A stretch of 64,000 nt of DNA, from the NCBI GenBank assembly GCA_009779745.1, contig WRDR01000009.1, positions 840 through 64,839 on the forward strand. Direction: 5' to 3'. This DNA comes from Alphaproteobacteria bacterium (GTDB lineage: Bacteria > Pseudomonadota > Alphaproteobacteria > UBA9219). Under the pieces are notes generated by a model that was not told the origin of the DNA, did no database searches, and was given only the letters and a program-made list of their open reading frames with translations. This document shows, piece after piece, positions 576 to 61,710 of this stretch (the first letter of the stretch is position 1; each line of letters opens with the position of its first letter). Position numbers and translations under genes: made by a program.

Positions 576-980
576 CTAATTTTCAATTTCTAATTTAATT
601 TGATTTGGCAATCTTACGGGTTTCCCATGCGCGGCTCCGACTGCTACGCATGTTACTGCCAGAGAACAAAGCGTCTTCCCGTCTTTGTGAATCGTTTGAG
701 TCATTATAAAAGAGCTGTTTTTGCACTCCGTGACTTCGGACGTAACAGTAACAAGCTCATCTAATCTCGCAGGAGCCAAATAATCCGCCTCTACTCTTCT
801 CACTACCATATATAAATCATGTTCGCGGAATACCTGTTGCAAATCGATTCCCAAAGACCGCAAAAACTCTACGCGGCCTCTTTCCGCGAATTTGAGATAA
901 TTCGCATAATACACCACCCCCTCCGCATCCGTATCTTCGTAGTATATTCTTATGTCTATGCTGTGTTTATAATTATTCAT
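576..980 (-). CDS. ybgC: YbgC/FadM-family acyl-CoA thioesterase
   Basis: [25 protein letters not shown] hot-dog-fold motif; usual position after ruvB. Confidence 0.9.
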
Positions 981-2026
981 ATTTCTTCTTCCGTATCGAA
1001 AAAATCATCGATTCTGTTTGCCGGCATAGGCAATCCTATGTGCTTATATCCTACTGCCGTTAACATTCGACCTCTCGGAGTTCTCTGGACTAATCCCTGC
1101 TGCATAAGATACGGCTCTATTACCTCTTCTATTACGTCTCTTTGTTCCGCCATAGCCGCTGCAATAGTATCTGCGCCCACAGGTCCGCCTCCGTAATTCT
1201 TCGCAATAACAGTCATATATTTCCTGTCCATAGCATCAAAGCCCTTTTCATCTACTTCCAGTTTTTTTAACGCCGTATCTGCCAATTCTGCATCTACTAT
1301 CTCTTCATTCGCTACAGCGGCAAAATCCCGTATCCTTCTAAGCAGCCTGCCTGCTATCCTAGGCGTTCCTCTGGACCTTTTGGCTATCTCTTCTGCTCCT
1401 CCTTCGGATAAACCCATTCCCAGTTTTGCGGCTGCTCCGGAAACAATATGGCGCAGCTCTTTTTCGCCGTAAAACTGAAACCTTAGCGGAATCCCGAATC
1501 TCTCTCTTAGAGGTCTGGTTATAAGCCCGCTCCTCGTAGTAGCTCCTATCAGAGTAAACGGCGGCAAATCTATTTTCACAGATCTTGCAGCAGGTCCTTC
1601 TCCTATCATTAAATCTAATTGAAAATCCTCCATAGCCGGATATAGAATCTCTTCCACTGCGGGACTTAGCCTATGTATTTCGTCTATGAACAGCACATCA
1701 TGAGGCTGTAAATTAGTAAGCAGCGCCGCTAAATCTCCAGCCCTTGCAATAACAGGACCCGATGTACCCCGAAAACCCACGCCCAGCTCTTTTGCTATTA
1801 TCTGAGCGAGCGTAGTTTTGCCTAATCCGGGAGGTCCGTATAACAGCGTGTGATCTAAAGCCTGTGTTCTTTTTTTCGCAGCCTCTATGAACACCTTTAG
1901 ATTCTCTCTTATAGTCTGCTGCCCGATGAACTCTGACAGATATTCAGGACGCAGGGCATTGTTGTGGTGCTCCGCCTGTTCTTCGGATATGGCTTTTCTT
2001 TCTACTAAGCGTTCCGGGTTTTTCAT
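977..2026 (-). CDS. ruvB: Holliday junction branch migration ATPase RuvB
   Basis: [20 protein letters not shown]alker [17 protein letters not shown]. Confidence 0.98.
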
Positions 2027-2628
2027 AAAGCCAGCTCCTTAAGAGATAATCTAATCAAATCTTTTAATGCTATATCCTGATTAGCAGCCGTTATAGCAGA
2101 GACTACGGAAAAAGCATCTGCCCGCTTATAGCCAAGATTGCACAAAGCAGACACCGCTTCGGAAGAGATGCCTTGGTGCATGCCTGACGATACGGTATTT
2201 ACCGTTTTTGCGCCATTGCCGGCAAACGCAGAAACCTTATCTTTTAGCTCTGTGATTATCCTTAGAGCCAGCTTAGCTCCTACTCCGTCCGCAGCAGTCA
2301 AAACGCTTTTTTCCTGAGCTGCTATAGCGGCAGCCAGTCTGTCAGGACTTACAGTGCCAAGTATTGCAATCGCAACCTTAGAGCCTACTCCCTGTACTGT
2401 AGTAAGCAGTCTGAACCATTCCTGTTCCGAGCGAGACGCAAACCCGAACAACGATATGGCATCTTCTCTTACAATGGTATCAATCAGAAGACTCGCATTG
2501 TCTCCGGCTCTTCCTATGTCTCTTAGAGTGCAGGCGGAACACGTGACAACATAGCCTACTCCGTTCACATCTAGGATAATTTTGTTATCGGAAATGTTGT
2601 CTATGATTCCGGTTAATTTACCTATCAT
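2023..2628 (-). CDS. ruvA: Holliday junction DNA-binding protein RuvA
   Basis: [23 protein letters not shown] HhH motif, ALCNLGY C-terminal domain. Confidence 0.97.
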
Positions 2629-3107
2629 CTTGCGCCTCTGTGGTGAGCGTGAGTTATAGCTGCAGCCAAAGCGTCTGCTCCGTCCGGAGTCAGTTTAACA
2701 GTTTTATCCATTTTTGGAAGCAATATAGCAACCATTGTTTGTATTTGTTTTTTGTCCGCATGTCCGTAGCCGGTAACGGACTGTTTTATGCGGTTTGCAG
2801 AGTATTCCGTGACCGGAAGTCCTTTTTGTGCAAGACTTAGCATTGCGCTGCCTCTTGCCTGACCCAACAGCAGCGCGGATTTTGCGTTTTTGTTTACAAA
2901 AGTTTCTTCTATAGCGGCTTCTGCGGGCATGTATTTATTTACTATATCCGAAATGCCATCTGCAATAGCGAGCAGCCTTAAAGATATCGGCATATCTGCG
3001 TCCGGATTTATCCGTCCGGCAGCAACAAAGGACAGGCTGTTTCCGGAAACGTCTATGATTCCCCAGCCAGTATGTCTTAGTCCCGGATCTATGCCTATGA
3101 TTCTCAT
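2625..3107 (-). CDS. ruvC: crossover junction endodeoxyribonuclease RuvC
   Basis: IIGIDPGLRHTGWG, AIEETFVNKN, LGQARG, DALAAAITH. Confidence 0.97.
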   Translation of the reverse strand: MRIIGIDPGLRHTGWGIIDVSGNSLSFVAAGRINPDADMPISLRLLAIADGISDIVNKYMPAEAAIEETFVNKNAKSALLLGQARGSAMLSLAQKGLPVTEYSANRIKQSVTGYGHADKKQIQTMVAILLPKMDKTVKLTPDGADALAAAITHAHHRGAR

Positions 3108-3113
3108 TTTATT

Positions 3114-59964: not shown

Positions 59965-60030
59965 AAAAGTGTGGAGTTGAAAACGGAAAGTTGAATCTGG
60001 CATTTGGTATCTGGACACTAATTTTCAATT

Positions 60031-60966
60031 TCATATTAACTTTATAACCTCTTGCACCGTAATATTCTTCACGTTGCTGTTGTGAATGAGCCTAGTTTTT
60101 GTGCCTATGGGCTTGTTCCATTCAGCGATCTTTCCAGATGAATATAACGCTATAGTTTTTCTTTCCAGCACAGAGGCTATCTGCATGGGTCCAGTATCAC
60201 CGCCTATTACCAAGTCCGCTTTCCTAAGCACTCCAGTCAGTTCAAACAACGATGTTTTGCCGCATAAGTTTATTAATTTTCTGTTTTGAACCCGTGCATG
60301 AATATCCGCGCAAATTTCCGCATCACTTGCTGCTCCGACTAAACATACTGTTTTGGATTGCTCCAGCAAATATATTGCCAGCTCGGCAAACTTATCAGTT
60401 CCCCAGCGTTTGTGATCTTTCCCTACAGAGCTTCCCGGTATCAGTACTGTTATTCTGTCCGGCAGATTAAATTTCTCTATATCCGCATTAAGCCAATCCA
60501 GATTAATAGCGGACTCGTCCCACTTTACGCCGGTCTGTTCCAGCTGAAGCCTCTGCGCATCCTGCCAGTTTCTAATCCCTTTCAGACCCCTTTTGTACGC
60601 ACAAAAAGGAGCAGCCCCAGACCACCTAGTCCCGCGGCAGCCTCCCAGTAAAAAATACTGTATAGTTTGTCTTTTCTTACAATGAAAATCATAAACCGTT
60701 ATTTTATCAGTATCGCCTCTAAACTTAAGAATGTTCTTACTCAGTTTTAACCATTCTTTTATATTCCAGAAAGCAGGCTTAGTATCGACAATTATCTCAT
60801 CAAACCACGGCATAGCTTTTACAAAAGAAGCAAACTGTTGTCTGACTAATAAGGCTATTCTGTCGTTTTTATAGTGTTTTCTTATGCTCTGAAAGGCTCT
60901 GCAGCAAAGAACAAAATCTCCCAATGCGCCTAATCTTATGACTAAAATTTTATTTTGTTGTTTCAT
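60031..60966 (-). CDS. glycosyltransferase family 9 (heptosyltransferase-like)
   Basis: ILVIRLGALGD, PGSS..KRW, GDTGPMQIA. Confidence 0.9.
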   Translation of the reverse strand: MKQQNKILVIRLGALGDFVLCCRAFQSIRKHYKNDRIALLVRQQFASFVKAMPWFDEIIVDTKPAFWNIKEWLKLSKNILKFRGDTDKITVYDFHCKKRQTIQYFLLGGCRGTRWSGAAPFCAYKRGLKGIRNWQDAQRLQLEQTGVKWDESAINLDWLNADIEKFNLPDRITVLIPGSSVGKDHKRWGTDKFAELAIYLLEQSKTVCLVGAASDAEICADIHARVQNRKLINLCGKTSLFELTGVLRKADLVIGGDTGPMQIASVLERKTIALYSSGKIAEWNKPIGTKTRLIHNSNVKNITVQEVIKLI

Positions 60967-61005
60967 GATAGTTTTGTTATATAGTTTTTTGTAAGGAGAG
61001 GCAAT

Positions 61006-61710
61006 ATGAAAGAAATAATCTTAGACACAGAAACAACAGGCGTGAAGGTCTCGGAAGGCGCAAGAGTAGTCGAAATCGGCTGCCTTGAAATAGACGATTT
61101 AATTCCTACCGGACGGACATTTCAAAAATATCTGAACCCCCAAATGCCTATGCCTAAAGAGGCGGAAGCTATACACGGACTCTCCGATGTGTTCTTAGCA
61201 GACAAGCCGCTGTTCTCTGAAATAGTAGATGAATTCCTAGAGTTCATAGGAGATGCTCCGCTGGTAATCCACAATGCCAGTTTCGACATGGAATTCATCA
61301 ACGCAGAGCTGGCTATGGCAGGATACAAAAGGCTCCCAATGAGCAGAGCCATTGACACCTTGATAATTGCGAGAAAAAAATTCCCCAACACCAGCGTAAG
61401 CCTAGACAGTTTGTGCAAACGCTTCAAAATAGACAACTCCGGAAGAACCTTTCACGGCGCTCTTCTGGACGTTCAGCTTTTAGCGGAAGTGTATTTGCAT
61501 CTCTCGGGCGGTCAGCAGTCCGATTTATCTTTTTCCATTTCTACCAAAGAATTTTCGCCGCAGATTATCGAACAAAAAACCTCTTTTCTGGAGCCCAGAC
61601 ACTTTCCCGCACTTCCGGAAGAGCTGACGGCACACTCTAAATTCTTAGAGCAGATTTCTAATCCGGCTTGGAAGAAAATGGAAAATGGAAAATGGAAAAT
61701 GGAAAATTGA
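61006..61710 (+). CDS. dnaQ: DNA polymerase III epsilon subunit
   Basis: LDTETTG, HNASFD, HGALLD..LLAEVY..L.GGQQ. Confidence 0.96.
   Translation: MKEIILDTETTGVKVSEGARVVEIGCLEIDDLIPTGRTFQKYLNPQMPMPKEAEAIHGLSDVFLADKPLFSEIVDEFLEFIGDAPLVIHNASFDMEFINAELAMAGYKRLPMSRAIDTLIIARKKFPNTSVSLDSLCKRFKIDNSGRTFHGALLDVQLLAEVYLHLSGGQQSDLSFSISTKEFSPQIIEQKTSFLEPRHFPALPEELTAHSKFLEQISNPAWKKMENGKWKMEN
61675..61710. repeat. (AAAATGG)x4 forming the dnaQ 3' end and stop
   Basis: aaaatggaaaatggaaaatggaaaatggaaaattga. Confidence 0.9.

What the first reader, a model, noticed from the sequence alone, without database searches (positions are those of the whole stretch)
576..61710. Heptamer-repeat element family occupying more than 20 gene junctions
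Seen: short 7-nt-period arrays of related units (AGTGTGG, AGTTTGG, AAAATGG, AATGTGA, AATTAGG) recur almost only at gene boundaries. Loci include ~578, 3999, 10011, 10939, 11772, 16806, 26260, 26837, 27968, 36279, 42337, 45847, 46495, 48331, 49501, 50724, 54973, 59411, 59969 and 61675. Several have inverted arms that could fold as hairpins, and 26260-26293 is nearly the reverse complement of 45881-45908, which implies copying between loci. Known precedent: STRR heptamer repeats of heterocystous cyanobacteria. Inference: a non-autonomous, templated or slippage-amplified element whose mobilising enzyme is not in this window.
Basis: partly seen in the sequence, partly recalled or inferred. Interest (0 to 1): 0.75.

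Follow-up and report, generated by a model that had tools for sequence, protein, structure and literature searches.

The report
Heptamer repeat bloom at gene junctions
A small termite-gut bacterial genome is peppered with short 7-base tandem repeats that sit just after stop codons and often pair into hairpins, a new and very dense example of a known but still unexplained kind of bacterial repeat.

Summary
All 20 listed loci hold period-7 arrays, and 22 of 67 window junctions carry one. Genome-wide (1.48 Mb) I find 214 period-7 arrays against 3-23 at periods 5, 6, 8, 9 and 10. 190 of 214 lie between genes or at ORF edges (about 37.5 expected).

Of these, 210 fit one degenerate unit, A-R-W-K-N-R-R, with almost no C on the purine-rich (R) strand. 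New rules found here:
- Inverted partners always lie 3' of the R arm: 65 versus 0 here, 18 versus 0 in a relative with other units, 16 versus 2 in other phyla.
- Single arrays favour the sense strand (60 versus 22) and start at or inside the upstream stop codon.
- Imperfect 28-31-nt modules recur at 5-12 loci, so arrays are copied between sites.
- Twenty congeners lack the family, and at two orthologous junctions they carry terminator hairpins instead.

No Y1, DDE, IS110 or TnpB transposase was found, and mutS and mutL are intact.

Verdict: a lineage-specific bloom of heptamer simple-sequence repeats, of the same kind as cyanobacterial STRR, Xanthomonas GGGAATC and TAACTGA repeats. It is a new member of a known kind, and the mechanism stays inferred. 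Earlier reports of this scan noted the same repeats on other pieces of this genome.

The parts
573..596 (-). Y-type array on + (R strand is -); overlaps the stop end of the thioesterase ORF 576-980(-)
3996..4029 (+). (AGTGTGG)4.4, R arm
4036..4069 (-). Y arm (TTTTTCA-type). With 3996-4029 it forms a moderate hairpin directly after the stop of the solute-binding protein gene 4061-6001(-)
   Evidence: (z -3.6)
10007..10039 (+). single R array (AATGGAA/AATTGAA)
10938..10974 (+). single R array (AGTGTGG type)
11770..11804 (-). Y-type array abutting a GC hairpin (11810-11845)
16806..16829 (-). Y-type array (ATTTCAC)
26259..26294 (+). copy of the dispersed imperfect module M1 (one mismatch), upstream of ndk
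26834..26884 (+). R arm including (AAAATGG)5; begins 3 nt after the ndk stop
26887..26924 (-). Y arm (ACTCCAC)4.6; with the R arm a moderate hairpin at the place where a congener has a terminator
   Evidence: (z -3.2)
27964..27988 (+). R array that supplies the stop codon of ORF 26853-27998
36275..36310 (+). R arm (AGTGTGGAGTTTGG)2.2
36311..36339 (-). loop GCTGCATATTCTTA plus Y arm; strongest hairpin in the window
   Evidence: -34.8 kcal/mol, z -8.6
40116..40134 (+). (AATTAGG)2.7, short array
42337..42362 (+). (AGTGTGG)3.4, directly beside an ordinary terminator-like hairpin at 42298-42336
45845..45868 (+). R arm starting at the rplY stop codon
45869..45913 (-). loop CTGGTACGTATTCTTA plus Y arm (reverse complement of module M1); hairpin at the place of the congeners' terminator
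   Evidence: z -4.9
46490..46526 (+). R array forming the last codons and stop of pth
46533..46569 (-). Y-type arrays after the stop of the convergent M15 peptidase gene
48328..48357 (+). R arm (AAAATTG/AAAATGG) holding the coaE stop
48367..48406 (-). Y arm overlapping the recF stop end; convergent junction filled by the pair
   Evidence: z -2.5
49499..49531 (-). Y on + (sense R for the - strand genes): fills the dnaJ stop to recF start spacer
50718..50740 (+). (AGTGTGG)2.4 R array
50742..50780 (.). palindrome GGTGCGTATTCCCCTTCCC..GGGAAGGGGAATA joined to the array. Its left half is the loop motif of the heptamer hairpins
53313..53365 (.). (AGAATGC)-type R arm 53313-53339 and Y arm 53344-53365, upstream of dnaA
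   Evidence: z -6.9
54970..55005 (.). about 2.5 units GAATGTGTGGAGTGTGGAAT, loop ATGCACCCACC, and AACTCCTAATT. It is the whole 36-nt spacer between the dnaA and flgD stops; its fold is not better than shuffles
   Evidence: z -1.6
59411..59444 (+). (AATGTGA)4.4 R arm
59485..59510 (-). Y arm; hairpin with a 42-60 nt spacer just upstream of fliX
   Evidence: (z -5.5)
59963..60030 (.). short R run (59963-59983) and Y run filling the fliX/heptosyltransferase convergent spacer. Three congeners have almost no spacer there
   Evidence: no significant fold
61673..61710 (+). (GAAAATG)4.9 forming the last ~12 codons and the stop of the RNase T gene

Best explanation
This is a lineage-specific bloom of one family of heptanucleotide simple-sequence repeats, (A-R-W-K-N-R-R)n. 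The main units are AATGGAA (=AAAATGG), AGTGTGG, AATGTAG, AATGTGA and AATTAGG. It belongs to the known but unexplained class of intergenic heptamer repeats.

Proposed working:
1. Units multiply in place by slipped-strand mispairing during replication or repair (inferred).
2. Point mutations make unit variants, which then spread along an array (inferred from mixed in-phase arrays).
3. Whole arrays, imperfect ones included, are copied to other junctions. That copying happened is shown. The route is unknown; gene conversion or template switching between similar arrays is the most economical guess.
4. Selection keeps arrays where they do least harm or some good. That is in the few bases after a stop codon, with the C-free purine-rich strand as the sense strand. 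There the unit variants that carry TGA, TAG or TAA offer stop codons in all three frames, and the arrays contain GGAG/GGA motifs and ATG/GTG triplets ahead of the next gene (placement shown, selection inferred).
5. Two arrays on opposite strands, always purine arm first, form stable hairpins. These fill convergent junctions and sit where relatives have terminator stems, so they probably act as 3'-end hairpins in the manner of REP elements (position shown, function inferred).

No dedicated mobilising enzyme is needed or seen.
For: Existence and specificity of period 7.

One family: 210 of 214 arrays fit A-R-W-K-N-R-R at >=85% of positions, with C at most 2% in every column of the R strand.

Junction location: 190 of 214 against about 37.5 expected.

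Lineage specificity:
- (AAAATGG)3 with up to 1 mismatch: 76 places in this genome and 0 in 40 relatives.
- A four-unit degenerate pattern: 296 matches here against 1 in total in 20 congeners, and at most 28 in any of 400 other genomes of the class.
- 78 kb of congener DNA holds one period-7 array.

Independent blooms with other units exist in the same order. G021 has CAGAGTT/CAGGATT, with 39 period-7 arrays against 1-13 at other periods in 776 kb.

Copying: the same imperfect modules recur at 9-12 and 5 loci.

Stop-codon anchoring and sense bias:
- Single arrays in co-directional junctions are sense 60, antisense 22.
- 37 of 60 sense arrays begin 1-40 nt before the end of the upstream ORF's stop codon.
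- Only 3 of 22 antisense arrays lie within 10 nt of that stop.

Hairpins: 49 distinct hairpins, -13 to -57 kcal/mol.
- Junction types: 17 convergent (8.5 expected), 21 co-directional (30.3), 9 divergent (8.2).
- 17 of 21 co-directional hairpins lie within 20 nt of the upstream stop, against 3 of 21 within 20 nt of the downstream start (rows).

Congener comparison:
- rplY-pth carries a GC-rich hairpin plus T-run in 11 of 11 congeners.
- The ndk 3' end does so in 1 of 1.
- This genome has heptamer hairpins at both places.
- The fliX/heptosyltransferase convergent spacer holds almost nothing in 3 of 5 congeners, against a 67-nt array-filled spacer here.

No transposase families were found. Literature: heptamer over-representation and the slippage idea are reported in PMC4692102 (passages read).
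Against: - Slippage itself was not observed. The three runs available only as contigs show no copy-number differences, and mutS and mutL are intact.
- Generic slippage does not explain why partner arms are never found 5' of the purine arm (0 of 214).
- It also does not explain why the period is seven.
- The hairpins mostly lack the U-tract of intrinsic terminators: 4 of 49 have at least 5 T in the 8 nt after the stem.
- Sense and antisense RNA folds are equally stable (9 versus 11), so an RNA-level role is not shown.
- The sense bias could partly be a replication-strand bias. The skew test was inconclusive: 23 versus 12 for leading-strand genes and 11 versus 9 for lagging-strand genes.
- G021 shows no sense bias (13 of 23).
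- Gene models are crude longest-ORF calls, so distances to start codons are unreliable.
Confidence: 0.6

Rival explanations
1. Foldback or MITE-like mobile element. The purine arm and pyrimidine arm would be the two terminal inverted repeats of a non-autonomous element. Those repeats happen to be built of heptamers, and the element is moved in trans by an unidentified enzyme. Single arrays would be half-elements or decayed copies.
For: - Fixed arm polarity in three data sets: 65 versus 0 of 214 here, 18 versus 0 of 36 in G021, 16 versus 2 of 116 loci from other phyla.
- Identical imperfect arms at 9-12 loci.
- A shared loop GGTRYRTATTC(TTA) in about 17 copies, found in both orientations relative to the same arm.
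- In G021 the arms bracket inserts of up to about 400 nt.
Against: - No conserved termini, target motif or duplication; arrays begin and end at any phase of the unit.
- Loops differ widely among AAAATGG-type pairs, from 1 to 66 nt of unrelated sequence.
- 147 of 214 arrays are single.
- No Y1, rve, DDE_Tnp_1, IS110 or TnpB gene in a 99.3%-complete assembly. Repeated genes can be missing from MAGs, however.
Confidence: 0.2
2. Selected RNA signals. The arrays would exist because they work in the transcript: hairpins as terminators or 3'-end stabilisers, and sense purine arrays as intercistronic landing pads that supply a stop, a Shine-Dalgarno-like GGAG and a start. C-rich, G-free pyrimidine arrays would be avoided in unpaired sense RNA, for instance because they would load Rho.
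For: - Sense bias of 60 versus 22, and arrays that span from stop to next start: 39 of 60 reach within 10 nt of, or overlap, the longest-ORF start.
- Hairpins sit right after stops and are twice as frequent as expected at convergent junctions.
- Hairpins replace terminator hairpins of congeners at 2 of 2 comparable junctions.
- Purine-arm-first order means the pyrimidine arm is paired as soon as it is made (inference).
- MacGregor 2015 proposed a post-transcriptional role for TAACTGA repeats (abstract read).
Against: - 20 congeners manage without them.
- Only 4 of 49 hairpins have a U-tract.
- No strand asymmetry of fold stability.
- 9 hairpins and 18 single arrays lie in divergent junctions.
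- No Rfam family matches.
Confidence: 0.15
3. Directional templated synthesis. The purine strand would be laid down by a strand-specific process and then snap back to copy itself, giving purine-arm-first hairpins. Candidate processes are reverse-transcriptase or telomerase-like copying of a short template, or R-loop-primed synthesis at gene 3' ends.
For: - Absolute polarity of the arms.
- A C-free purine strand like telomeric G strands.
- Anchoring at transcript 3' ends on the sense strand.
- Two intact ~330-aa reverse-transcriptase genes in the genome.
Against: - No array or template-like repeat beside either RT gene.
- RTs of this size are usually diversity-generating or defence enzymes (established knowledge).
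- Unit variants are too many for one template.
- Arrays are also present in divergent junctions.
Confidence: 0.04
4. Assembly or binning artefact.
For: Logan contigs break inside arrays, and repeat-induced false joints are seen. Some contig ends of the MAG carry homopolymer junk.
Against: The long contig pieces listed from three runs of two studies lie on the stretch without base differences, and one piece bridges an array pair. Arrays are embedded in conserved housekeeping synteny. The same phenomenon is seen in many independent assemblies.
Confidence: 0.01

Closest known systems
STRR, short tandemly repeated repetitive heptamers of heterocystous cyanobacteria (Mazel et al. 1990; recalled, and cited as ref. 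39 in PMC4692102, passages read)
   Same: Tandem 7-nt units; several unit types per genome; many dispersed intergenic copies; no known enzyme or function.
   Different: Different host (an uncultured termite-gut bacterium, alphaproteobacterial according to earlier notes). Different, C-free units; the Nostoc G-rich units GGGGATT and GGGGACT are absent as tandems. Short arrays of mostly 3-6 units. The stop-codon anchoring and arm-polarity rules shown here are not, to my recollection, described for STRR.
GGGAATC repeats of Xanthomonas and GGGGA(C/T)T repeats of Nostoc (Rehm et al. 2015, PMC4692102; passages read)
   Same: About 180-190 intergenic heptamer arrays per genome with a degenerate consensus. 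Pairs in convergent orientation that can form stem-loops. Length variation between species at the same junctions. Slippage proposed.
   Different: Those units carry G3-4 runs and can form G-quadruplexes. The units here have at most GG. The unit GGGAATC is absent as a tandem. Density is several-fold higher here: 214 arrays in 1.48 Mb.
TAACTGA direct repeats of marine Beggiatoaceae, cyanobacteria and Bacteroidetes (MacGregor 2015, PMC4679880; abstract and outline read)
   Same: 169 sets of 2-6 heptamer copies at gene boundaries. Patchy phylogenetic spread with no transfer mechanism evident. A post-transcriptional role suggested.
   Different: One invariant unit there against a degenerate family here. 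Mostly just upstream of start codons and almost never inverted there (one indirect repeat). Here arrays are anchored at stop codons and 49 hairpins are present. TAACTGA is absent as a tandem.
REP / REPIN elements with RAYT transposases (general knowledge; PMC3116915 seen only in a search listing)
   Same: Extragenic palindromes in hundreds of copies just after genes, often between convergent genes; possible mRNA 3'-end hairpins.
   Different: REP stems are not tandem arrays and have a conserved sequence. REPINs depend on a Y1 RAYT gene, which was not found here.
Neisseria dRS3/NTS hairpins and intergenic mosaics, with the SsnA nuclease (PMC11893778; passages read)
   Same: This genome also holds 22 hairpins of the ATTCCC-N8-GGGAAT kind and a small GIY-YIG ORF. 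Some hairpins are joined directly to heptamer arms, and the common hairpin loop is the left half of such a palindrome.
   Different: Only a minority of arrays touch such a hairpin. The published SRM search pattern finds no more than chance here: 8 hits against 1-7 in shuffles. No link between nicking and arrays was shown.
Foldback (FB) transposons of Drosophila (recalled)
   Same: Long inverted termini built from short tandem repeats, with a variable middle part.
   Different: Eukaryotic and far larger, with repeat units of 10-31 bp. The likeness is in architecture only.

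Membership tests
Intergenic heptanucleotide simple-sequence repeats of bacteria (as surveyed by Mrazek 2007, cited in PMC4692102) | Head-to-tail repeats with a 7-nt unit | tested here: met
Intergenic heptanucleotide simple-sequence repeats of bacteria | Period 7 over-represented relative to neighbouring periods and to shuffled sequence | tested here: met
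   214 against 3-23 at other periods. In intergenic DNA, 124 against 0.9 in shuffles and 1-4 at other periods.
Intergenic heptanucleotide simple-sequence repeats of bacteria | Mainly non-coding location | tested here: met
   190 of 214 intergenic or at ORF edges
Intergenic heptanucleotide simple-sequence repeats of bacteria | Unit-number variation between strains (slippage) | tested here: inconclusive
   Only contigs of three runs were available. No indels were seen, and contigs break inside arrays.
Cyanobacterial STRR | The specific STRR units | tested here: not met
   The Nostoc G-rich units GGGGATT and GGGGACT are absent as tandems. The unit list holds none with a run of four C or G. The three original STRR units were recalled only and not searched.
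Cyanobacterial STRR | Host is a heterocystous cyanobacterium | tested here: not met
   Flagellar, FliX, Dot/Icm and type IVb pilus genes are present. The runs are labelled termite gut metagenome. Earlier notes call it an alphaproteobacterium.
TAACTGA repeat system | Unit TAACTGA in direct repeats | tested here: not met
   0 tandem dimers in the genome
G-quadruplex heptamer repeats (Xanthomonas/Nostoc) | G3 or longer tract in each unit | tested here: not met
   0 tandem dimers of GGGAATC. The consensus has at most two adjacent G.
REP/REPIN-RAYT | Extragenic palindromic hairpins | tested here: met
   49 hairpins; window folds
REP/REPIN-RAYT | A Y1 (RAYT) transposase gene in the genome | tested here: not met
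   No PF01797 match in the 99.3%-complete assembly
MITE | Defined ends with target-site duplication | tested here: not met
   No conserved flank positions; variable start and end phases
MITE | A related autonomous element or transposase | tested here: not met
Intrinsic (Rho-independent) terminators | Stable stem-loop just after a gene | tested here: met
   17 of 21 co-directional hairpins lie within 20 nt of the upstream stop
Intrinsic (Rho-independent) terminators | U-tract directly after the stem | tested here: not met
   4 of 49 hairpins have at least 5 T in the next 8 nt. In a few more the T-run is folded into the stem.
Any Rfam RNA family | Match at the gathering score | tested here: not met
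   0 matches in the window

The most novel reading that the evidence does not exclude
Heptamer arrays would not be passive slippage products. They would be made or moved by a directional process shared across bacterial phyla. The purine-arm-first rule would mark the two ends of an unrecognised class of foldback-type mobile DNA with tandem-heptamer termini. Alternatively it would mark the snap-back product of a strand-specific synthesis at gene 3' ends. The rule stands at 65 versus 0 here, 18 versus 0 in a relative with unrelated units, and 16 versus 2 in other phyla. Either reading would finally give a mechanism for STRR-type repeats, known since 1990.
Probability: 0.15. Interest if true: 0.85.

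Novelty: new member of a known kind. Interest (0 to 1): 0.45.

Why it matters
Why bacteria so often amplify seven-base units, and what the arrays do, has been open since the cyanobacterial STRR repeats were described.

This genome is a compact and extreme case: one array per 7 kb, and at least ten times more matches than any of 400 sampled genomes of its class. The arrays follow simple, countable rules: a C-free unit, the sense strand, a start at the stop codon, and the purine arm always first.

Those rules turn a vague "slippage" story into testable alternatives: orientation-dependent selection, foldback mobility, or directional synthesis. They also warn annotators that stop codons, start codons and short protein tails in such genomes can be repeat-derived.

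Tried and rejected
- RNA evidence: no RNA holder was listed for the stretch, so expression and 3' ends could not be examined.
- Consensus terminator scan on a congener locus: 37 sites against 35.5 in shuffles, so useless. The window scan was not repeated after a range slip.
- Boundary logos: no conserved flank or target motif.
- G.U versus A.C strand asymmetry of hairpins: 9 sense, 11 antisense, 1 tie, so no signal.
- Leading versus lagging strand test of the sense bias: too few informative cases.
- Mismatch-repair loss as a cause: rejected, since mutS and mutL are intact.
- Transposases: Y1, rve, DDE_Tnp_1, IS110 and TnpB were not found. Other families were not searched.
- Reverse transcriptases: two genes, generic RT/UG-like by PADLOC, with no arrays nearby. 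The NCBIfam scan of them failed on a coordinate slip and was not repeated.
- Link to dRS3/NTS-like hairpins: 22 such hairpins, but the published SRM pattern gives only chance-level hits. Only some arrays abut them, so no general link.
- Metagenome search for closer relatives of pth: the best hit is 75% identical, on a 2.7-kb AT-rich contig with different neighbours and no arrays. This one short contig is not informative on empty versus filled sites.
- Copy-number polymorphism: none was seen in the contigs of three runs. Contigs drop rare variants, so this says little.

Full report
**The observation**

- 16 are in the TRF table, and a 17th (46495) has a listed Y-type array beside it.
- 578, 46495 and 59969 are recovered by a scan for in-phase runs of the degenerate unit.
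- 54973 holds about 2.5 units.

22 of the 67 junctions in the window carry at least one array. The window genes are ordinary housekeeping genes: ruvABC, truB, dot/icm and type IVb pilus genes, prfB, ndk, purH, prs, rplY, pth, coaE, recF, dnaJ, bamB, dnaA and flagellar genes. There is no mobile island here.

**More than chance**

The window lies in a 1.477-Mb assembly of 35 contigs, rated 99.3% complete.
- A self-similarity scan finds 214 period-7 arrays, against 4, 21, 3, 23 and 8 at periods 5, 6, 8, 9 and 10. A stricter threshold gives 87 against at most 6.
- In the 846 intergenic stretches alone (156,566 nt) there are 124 period-7 arrays. Twenty mononucleotide shuffles give a mean of 0.9 and a maximum of 3, and the other periods give 1-4.
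- 89 arrays are fully intergenic and 101 touch only an ORF edge. 8 lie partly and 16 fully inside ORF cores. Random placement of the same lengths gives 16.0, 21.5, 11.6 and 164.9. The gene set is a crude greedy longest-ORF set.

Contigs of three public termite-gut runs from two studies (possibly the source samples) lie on 44046-51000. The long pieces listed show no base differences or indels, apart from one T>C variant contig at 48362. One piece bridges the array pair at 46490-46569 in all three runs. The arrays are therefore not an artefact of this assembly.

**Anatomy**

All the arrays are one family. 210 of 214 fit A-R-W-K-N-R-R at 85% or more of positions, and C makes up at most 2% of any column on the purine-rich (R) strand. 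The commonest units are:

| Unit | Arrays |
|---|---|
| AAAATGG | 63 |
| AGTGTGG | 43 |
| AATGTAG | 15 |
| AATGTGA | 13 |
| AATTAGG | 11 |

. Different units follow one another in phase within a single array. Arrays begin and end at any phase, and the flanks carry no conserved motif.

**Polarity of arm pairs**

When an array has a complementary partner within 110 nt, the partner is always on the 3' side of the R arm. At a match score of 10 or more the count is 65 of 214 with a 3' partner and 0 of 214 with a 5' partner. The first clustering pass already gave 23 R-Y pairs and no Y-R. The pairs collapse to 49 distinct hairpins of -13 to -57 kcal/mol. In the window, 4 of 10 folded elements are strong, 3 moderate and 3 not better than shuffles.

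The rule holds elsewhere:
- In 776 kb of G021, a relative in another genus of the same family, whose bloom uses CAGAGTT/CAGGATT, 18 of 36 arrays have the partner downstream and none upstream. Spacers there reach about 400 nt.
- In 116 usable loci from many phyla the count is 16 against 2.
- Rehm et al. describe "convergent" pairs in Xanthomonas (PMC4692102, passages read), which appears to be the same order.

**Position relative to genes**

- Of 47 hairpins with two flanking ORFs, 17 lie between convergent genes (8.5 expected), 21 in co-directional junctions (30.3) and 9 in divergent ones (8.2). The chi-square p is 0.0035.
- In convergent junctions the hairpin is usually the whole spacer, and both ORFs end in its arms.
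- In co-directional junctions, 17 of 21 hairpins lie within 20 nt of the upstream stop codon, and 3 of 21 within 20 nt of the downstream longest-ORF start (rows).
- Of 147 single arrays, 24 are inside ORFs and 82 are in co-directional junctions. Of those 82, 60 have the R strand as sense and 22 as antisense (binomial p 3e-5).
- 37 of the 60 sense arrays begin 1-40 nt before the end of the upstream ORF, so the stop codon and a few last codons are repeat-derived. 39 of the 60 reach or overlap the next ORF's longest start.

Window examples are the tails of RNase T (61673-61710), pth, coaE and ORF 26853-27998, and the dnaJ-recF spacer. Whether the sense bias reflects transcription or replication direction could not be settled. 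G021 shows no such bias: 13 of 23.

**Copying between loci**

The imperfect array AGTGTGG-AGTGTTG-AGAGTGG-AGTGTGG-AGT recurs widely. Its 20-nt core occurs at 12 loci and its 28-mers at 9-10 loci. A second module, AGTGTGG-AGTTTGG-AGTGTGA-AGTGTGG, occurs at 5 loci. Independent slippage cannot produce the same order of variants again and again, so whole arrays are copied.

About 17 hairpins share a loop, GGTRYRTATTC(TTA). It occurs in both orientations relative to the same arm. It is also the left half of a longer palindrome, GGTACGTATTCCCCTTCCC...GGGAAGGGGAATACGTACC, which is sometimes present in full, as at window 50742-80. That palindrome is of the ATTCCC-N8-GGGAAT kind, of which the genome has 22.

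**Comparison with relatives**

The 20 congeners are distant: about 70% nucleotide identity in prs and 52-59% G+C, against 40-47% per contig here. This genome is the smallest of the listed congeners.
- (AAAATGG)3 with up to one mismatch is found at 76 places here and in none of 40 relatives.
- A four-unit degenerate pattern gives 296 matches here, with 6 for the reversed control. It gives one match in all 20 congeners together.
- 78 kb of congener DNA holds one period-7 array.
- Among 400 other genomes of the class, the next highest counts are 28, 21, 10 and 8. The pattern is tuned to this genome's units, so this measures this family and not heptamers in general.
- Other lineages of the same order have blooms of their own: G021 and G063 with AGTTCAG, and G031 with AGTGAAG. 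In G031 the control count exceeded the signal, but arrays are seen directly.

At orthologous junctions:
- The rplY-pth spacer holds a GC-rich hairpin with a T-run in 11 of 11 congeners. This genome has a heptamer hairpin there.
- The same holds at the ndk 3' end in the one congener available.
- The fliX/heptosyltransferase convergent junction has almost no spacer in 3 of 5 congeners. This genome has a 67-nt array-filled one.
- At other gene ends the congeners simply have unrelated sequence or the next gene.

**Enzymes**

mutS and mutL are present and uninterrupted. No Y1/RAYT, rve, DDE_Tnp_1, IS110 or TnpB-type gene was found. Two reverse-transcriptase genes of about 330 aa exist, but no arrays lie near them. 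A small GIY-YIG ORF is present. No Rfam family matches the window.

**Interpretation**

The best reading (about 0.6) is a lineage-specific bloom of a heptamer simple-sequence-repeat family. It would be amplified in place by slippage, spread by copying between similar arrays, and filtered by selection. The filter would leave arrays just behind stop codons with the C-free strand as sense, and as purine-first hairpins that take the place of terminator stems.

What is shown:
- the family exists,
- it is enriched at junctions,
- it is specific to this lineage,
- modules are copied between loci,
- arrays are anchored at stop codons,
- arm pairs have a fixed polarity.

What is inferred:
- slippage,
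- the route of copying,
- any function.

Only 4 of 49 hairpins carry a U-tract, and RNA folds show no strand preference. A REP-like 3'-end role is therefore plausible but unproven.

The fixed polarity is the one feature that generic slippage does not explain. It keeps two readings alive: a foldback-type mobile element (about 0.2) and a directional synthesis (about 0.04).

**Comparison with the known, and novelty**

Heptamer over-representation in bacterial intergenic DNA and the slippage idea are in print (PMC4692102, which cites a 2007 survey; passages read). So are the TAACTGA repeats (PMC4679880, abstract and outline read) and the STRR repeats (recalled). None of those units occurs here as a tandem, and the units here cannot form G-quadruplexes. 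This is therefore a new member of a known kind.

Three added rules may be general and are cheaply testable: a C-free unit, a start at the stop codon on the sense strand, and the purine arm first.

Earlier reports of this scan had already noted the same repeats on other pieces of this genome (e1-1532063, e1-691070) and the dRS3-like hairpins (e1-691073). I used them as leads and rechecked only parts of them.

Noticed in passing
window 36347-38469 (- strand): The membrane pyrophosphatase gene is split into two overlapping ORFs, 36347-37816 and 37813-38469. Both match the same family end to end. This is a frameshift, a sequencing error or a pseudogene.
   Followed up: no
window 50742-50780; genome-wide 22 sites (for example C1:71177-71196): Hairpins of the Neisseria dRS3 pattern ATTCCC-N8-GGGAAT, with extended forms GGTACGTATTCCCCTTCCC..GGGAAGGGGAATACGTACC. 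A small GIY-YIG ORF (81-aa open frame) lies at G000:C12:6358-6567. The published SRM pattern finds only chance-level hits here.
   Followed up: partly
G000:C5:75877-76914 (-) and G000:C14:14729-15703 (+): Two intact reverse-transcriptase genes of 345 and 324 aa carrying an SQ motif and a YMDD/YCDD box. They match only generic RT/UG-type models in PADLOC. One sits next to an HTH antidote-like ORF and a 164-aa ORF. No heptamer arrays lie beside them.
   Followed up: partly
whole genome versus congeners (L163-L175): This genome has 40-47% G+C per contig and 1.48 Mb. Its 20 congeners have 52-59% G+C (13 stretches sampled from seven of them) and 1.5-3.2 Mb. It is an AT-shifted, reduced member of its genus, and the heptamer bloom coincides with that shift.
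   Followed up: partly
window about 45090-45115, and L165, L167, L168, L170, L174, L175: A conserved motif CACCCCTGGAGG(C/T)C upstream of rplY is kept in this genome and in all six congeners compared. It is a candidate ribosomal-protein leader. No Rfam match at the gathering score.
   Followed up: no
window 56662-56799: A 54-nt tandem repeat (2.6 copies, 82% matches) inside the FliK-like hook-length gene 55811-57364(-).
   Followed up: no
L179, L181, L183 (G021) and L190 (G031): In relatives, purine-first array pairs bracket 100-400-nt inserts rich in GTCATCCCCGCGAAAGCGGGGAT-type hairpins. This mosaic recalls Neisseria intergenic mosaic elements.
   Followed up: partly
G194:C6:446626-446771: A distant genome of the same class carries an AGTGTGG/AGTTTAG array pair, again purine arm first. 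The same units therefore recur outside this lineage.
   Followed up: no
upstream of fliX in L167, L168, L170, L173, L174: A conserved small hairpin GGCA(C/T)AAATTGCC lies about 20-30 nt before the fliX start in five congeners. In this genome a heptamer hairpin occupies that place (59411-59510).
   Followed up: no
contig ends of G000 (C1, C3, C5, C10, C11, C17, C25): Several contig ends carry homopolymer runs of C, G or A. Several contigs share identical terminal sequences, for example the ends of C4/C6 and C5/C10. These are assembly-graph leftovers.
   Followed up: no
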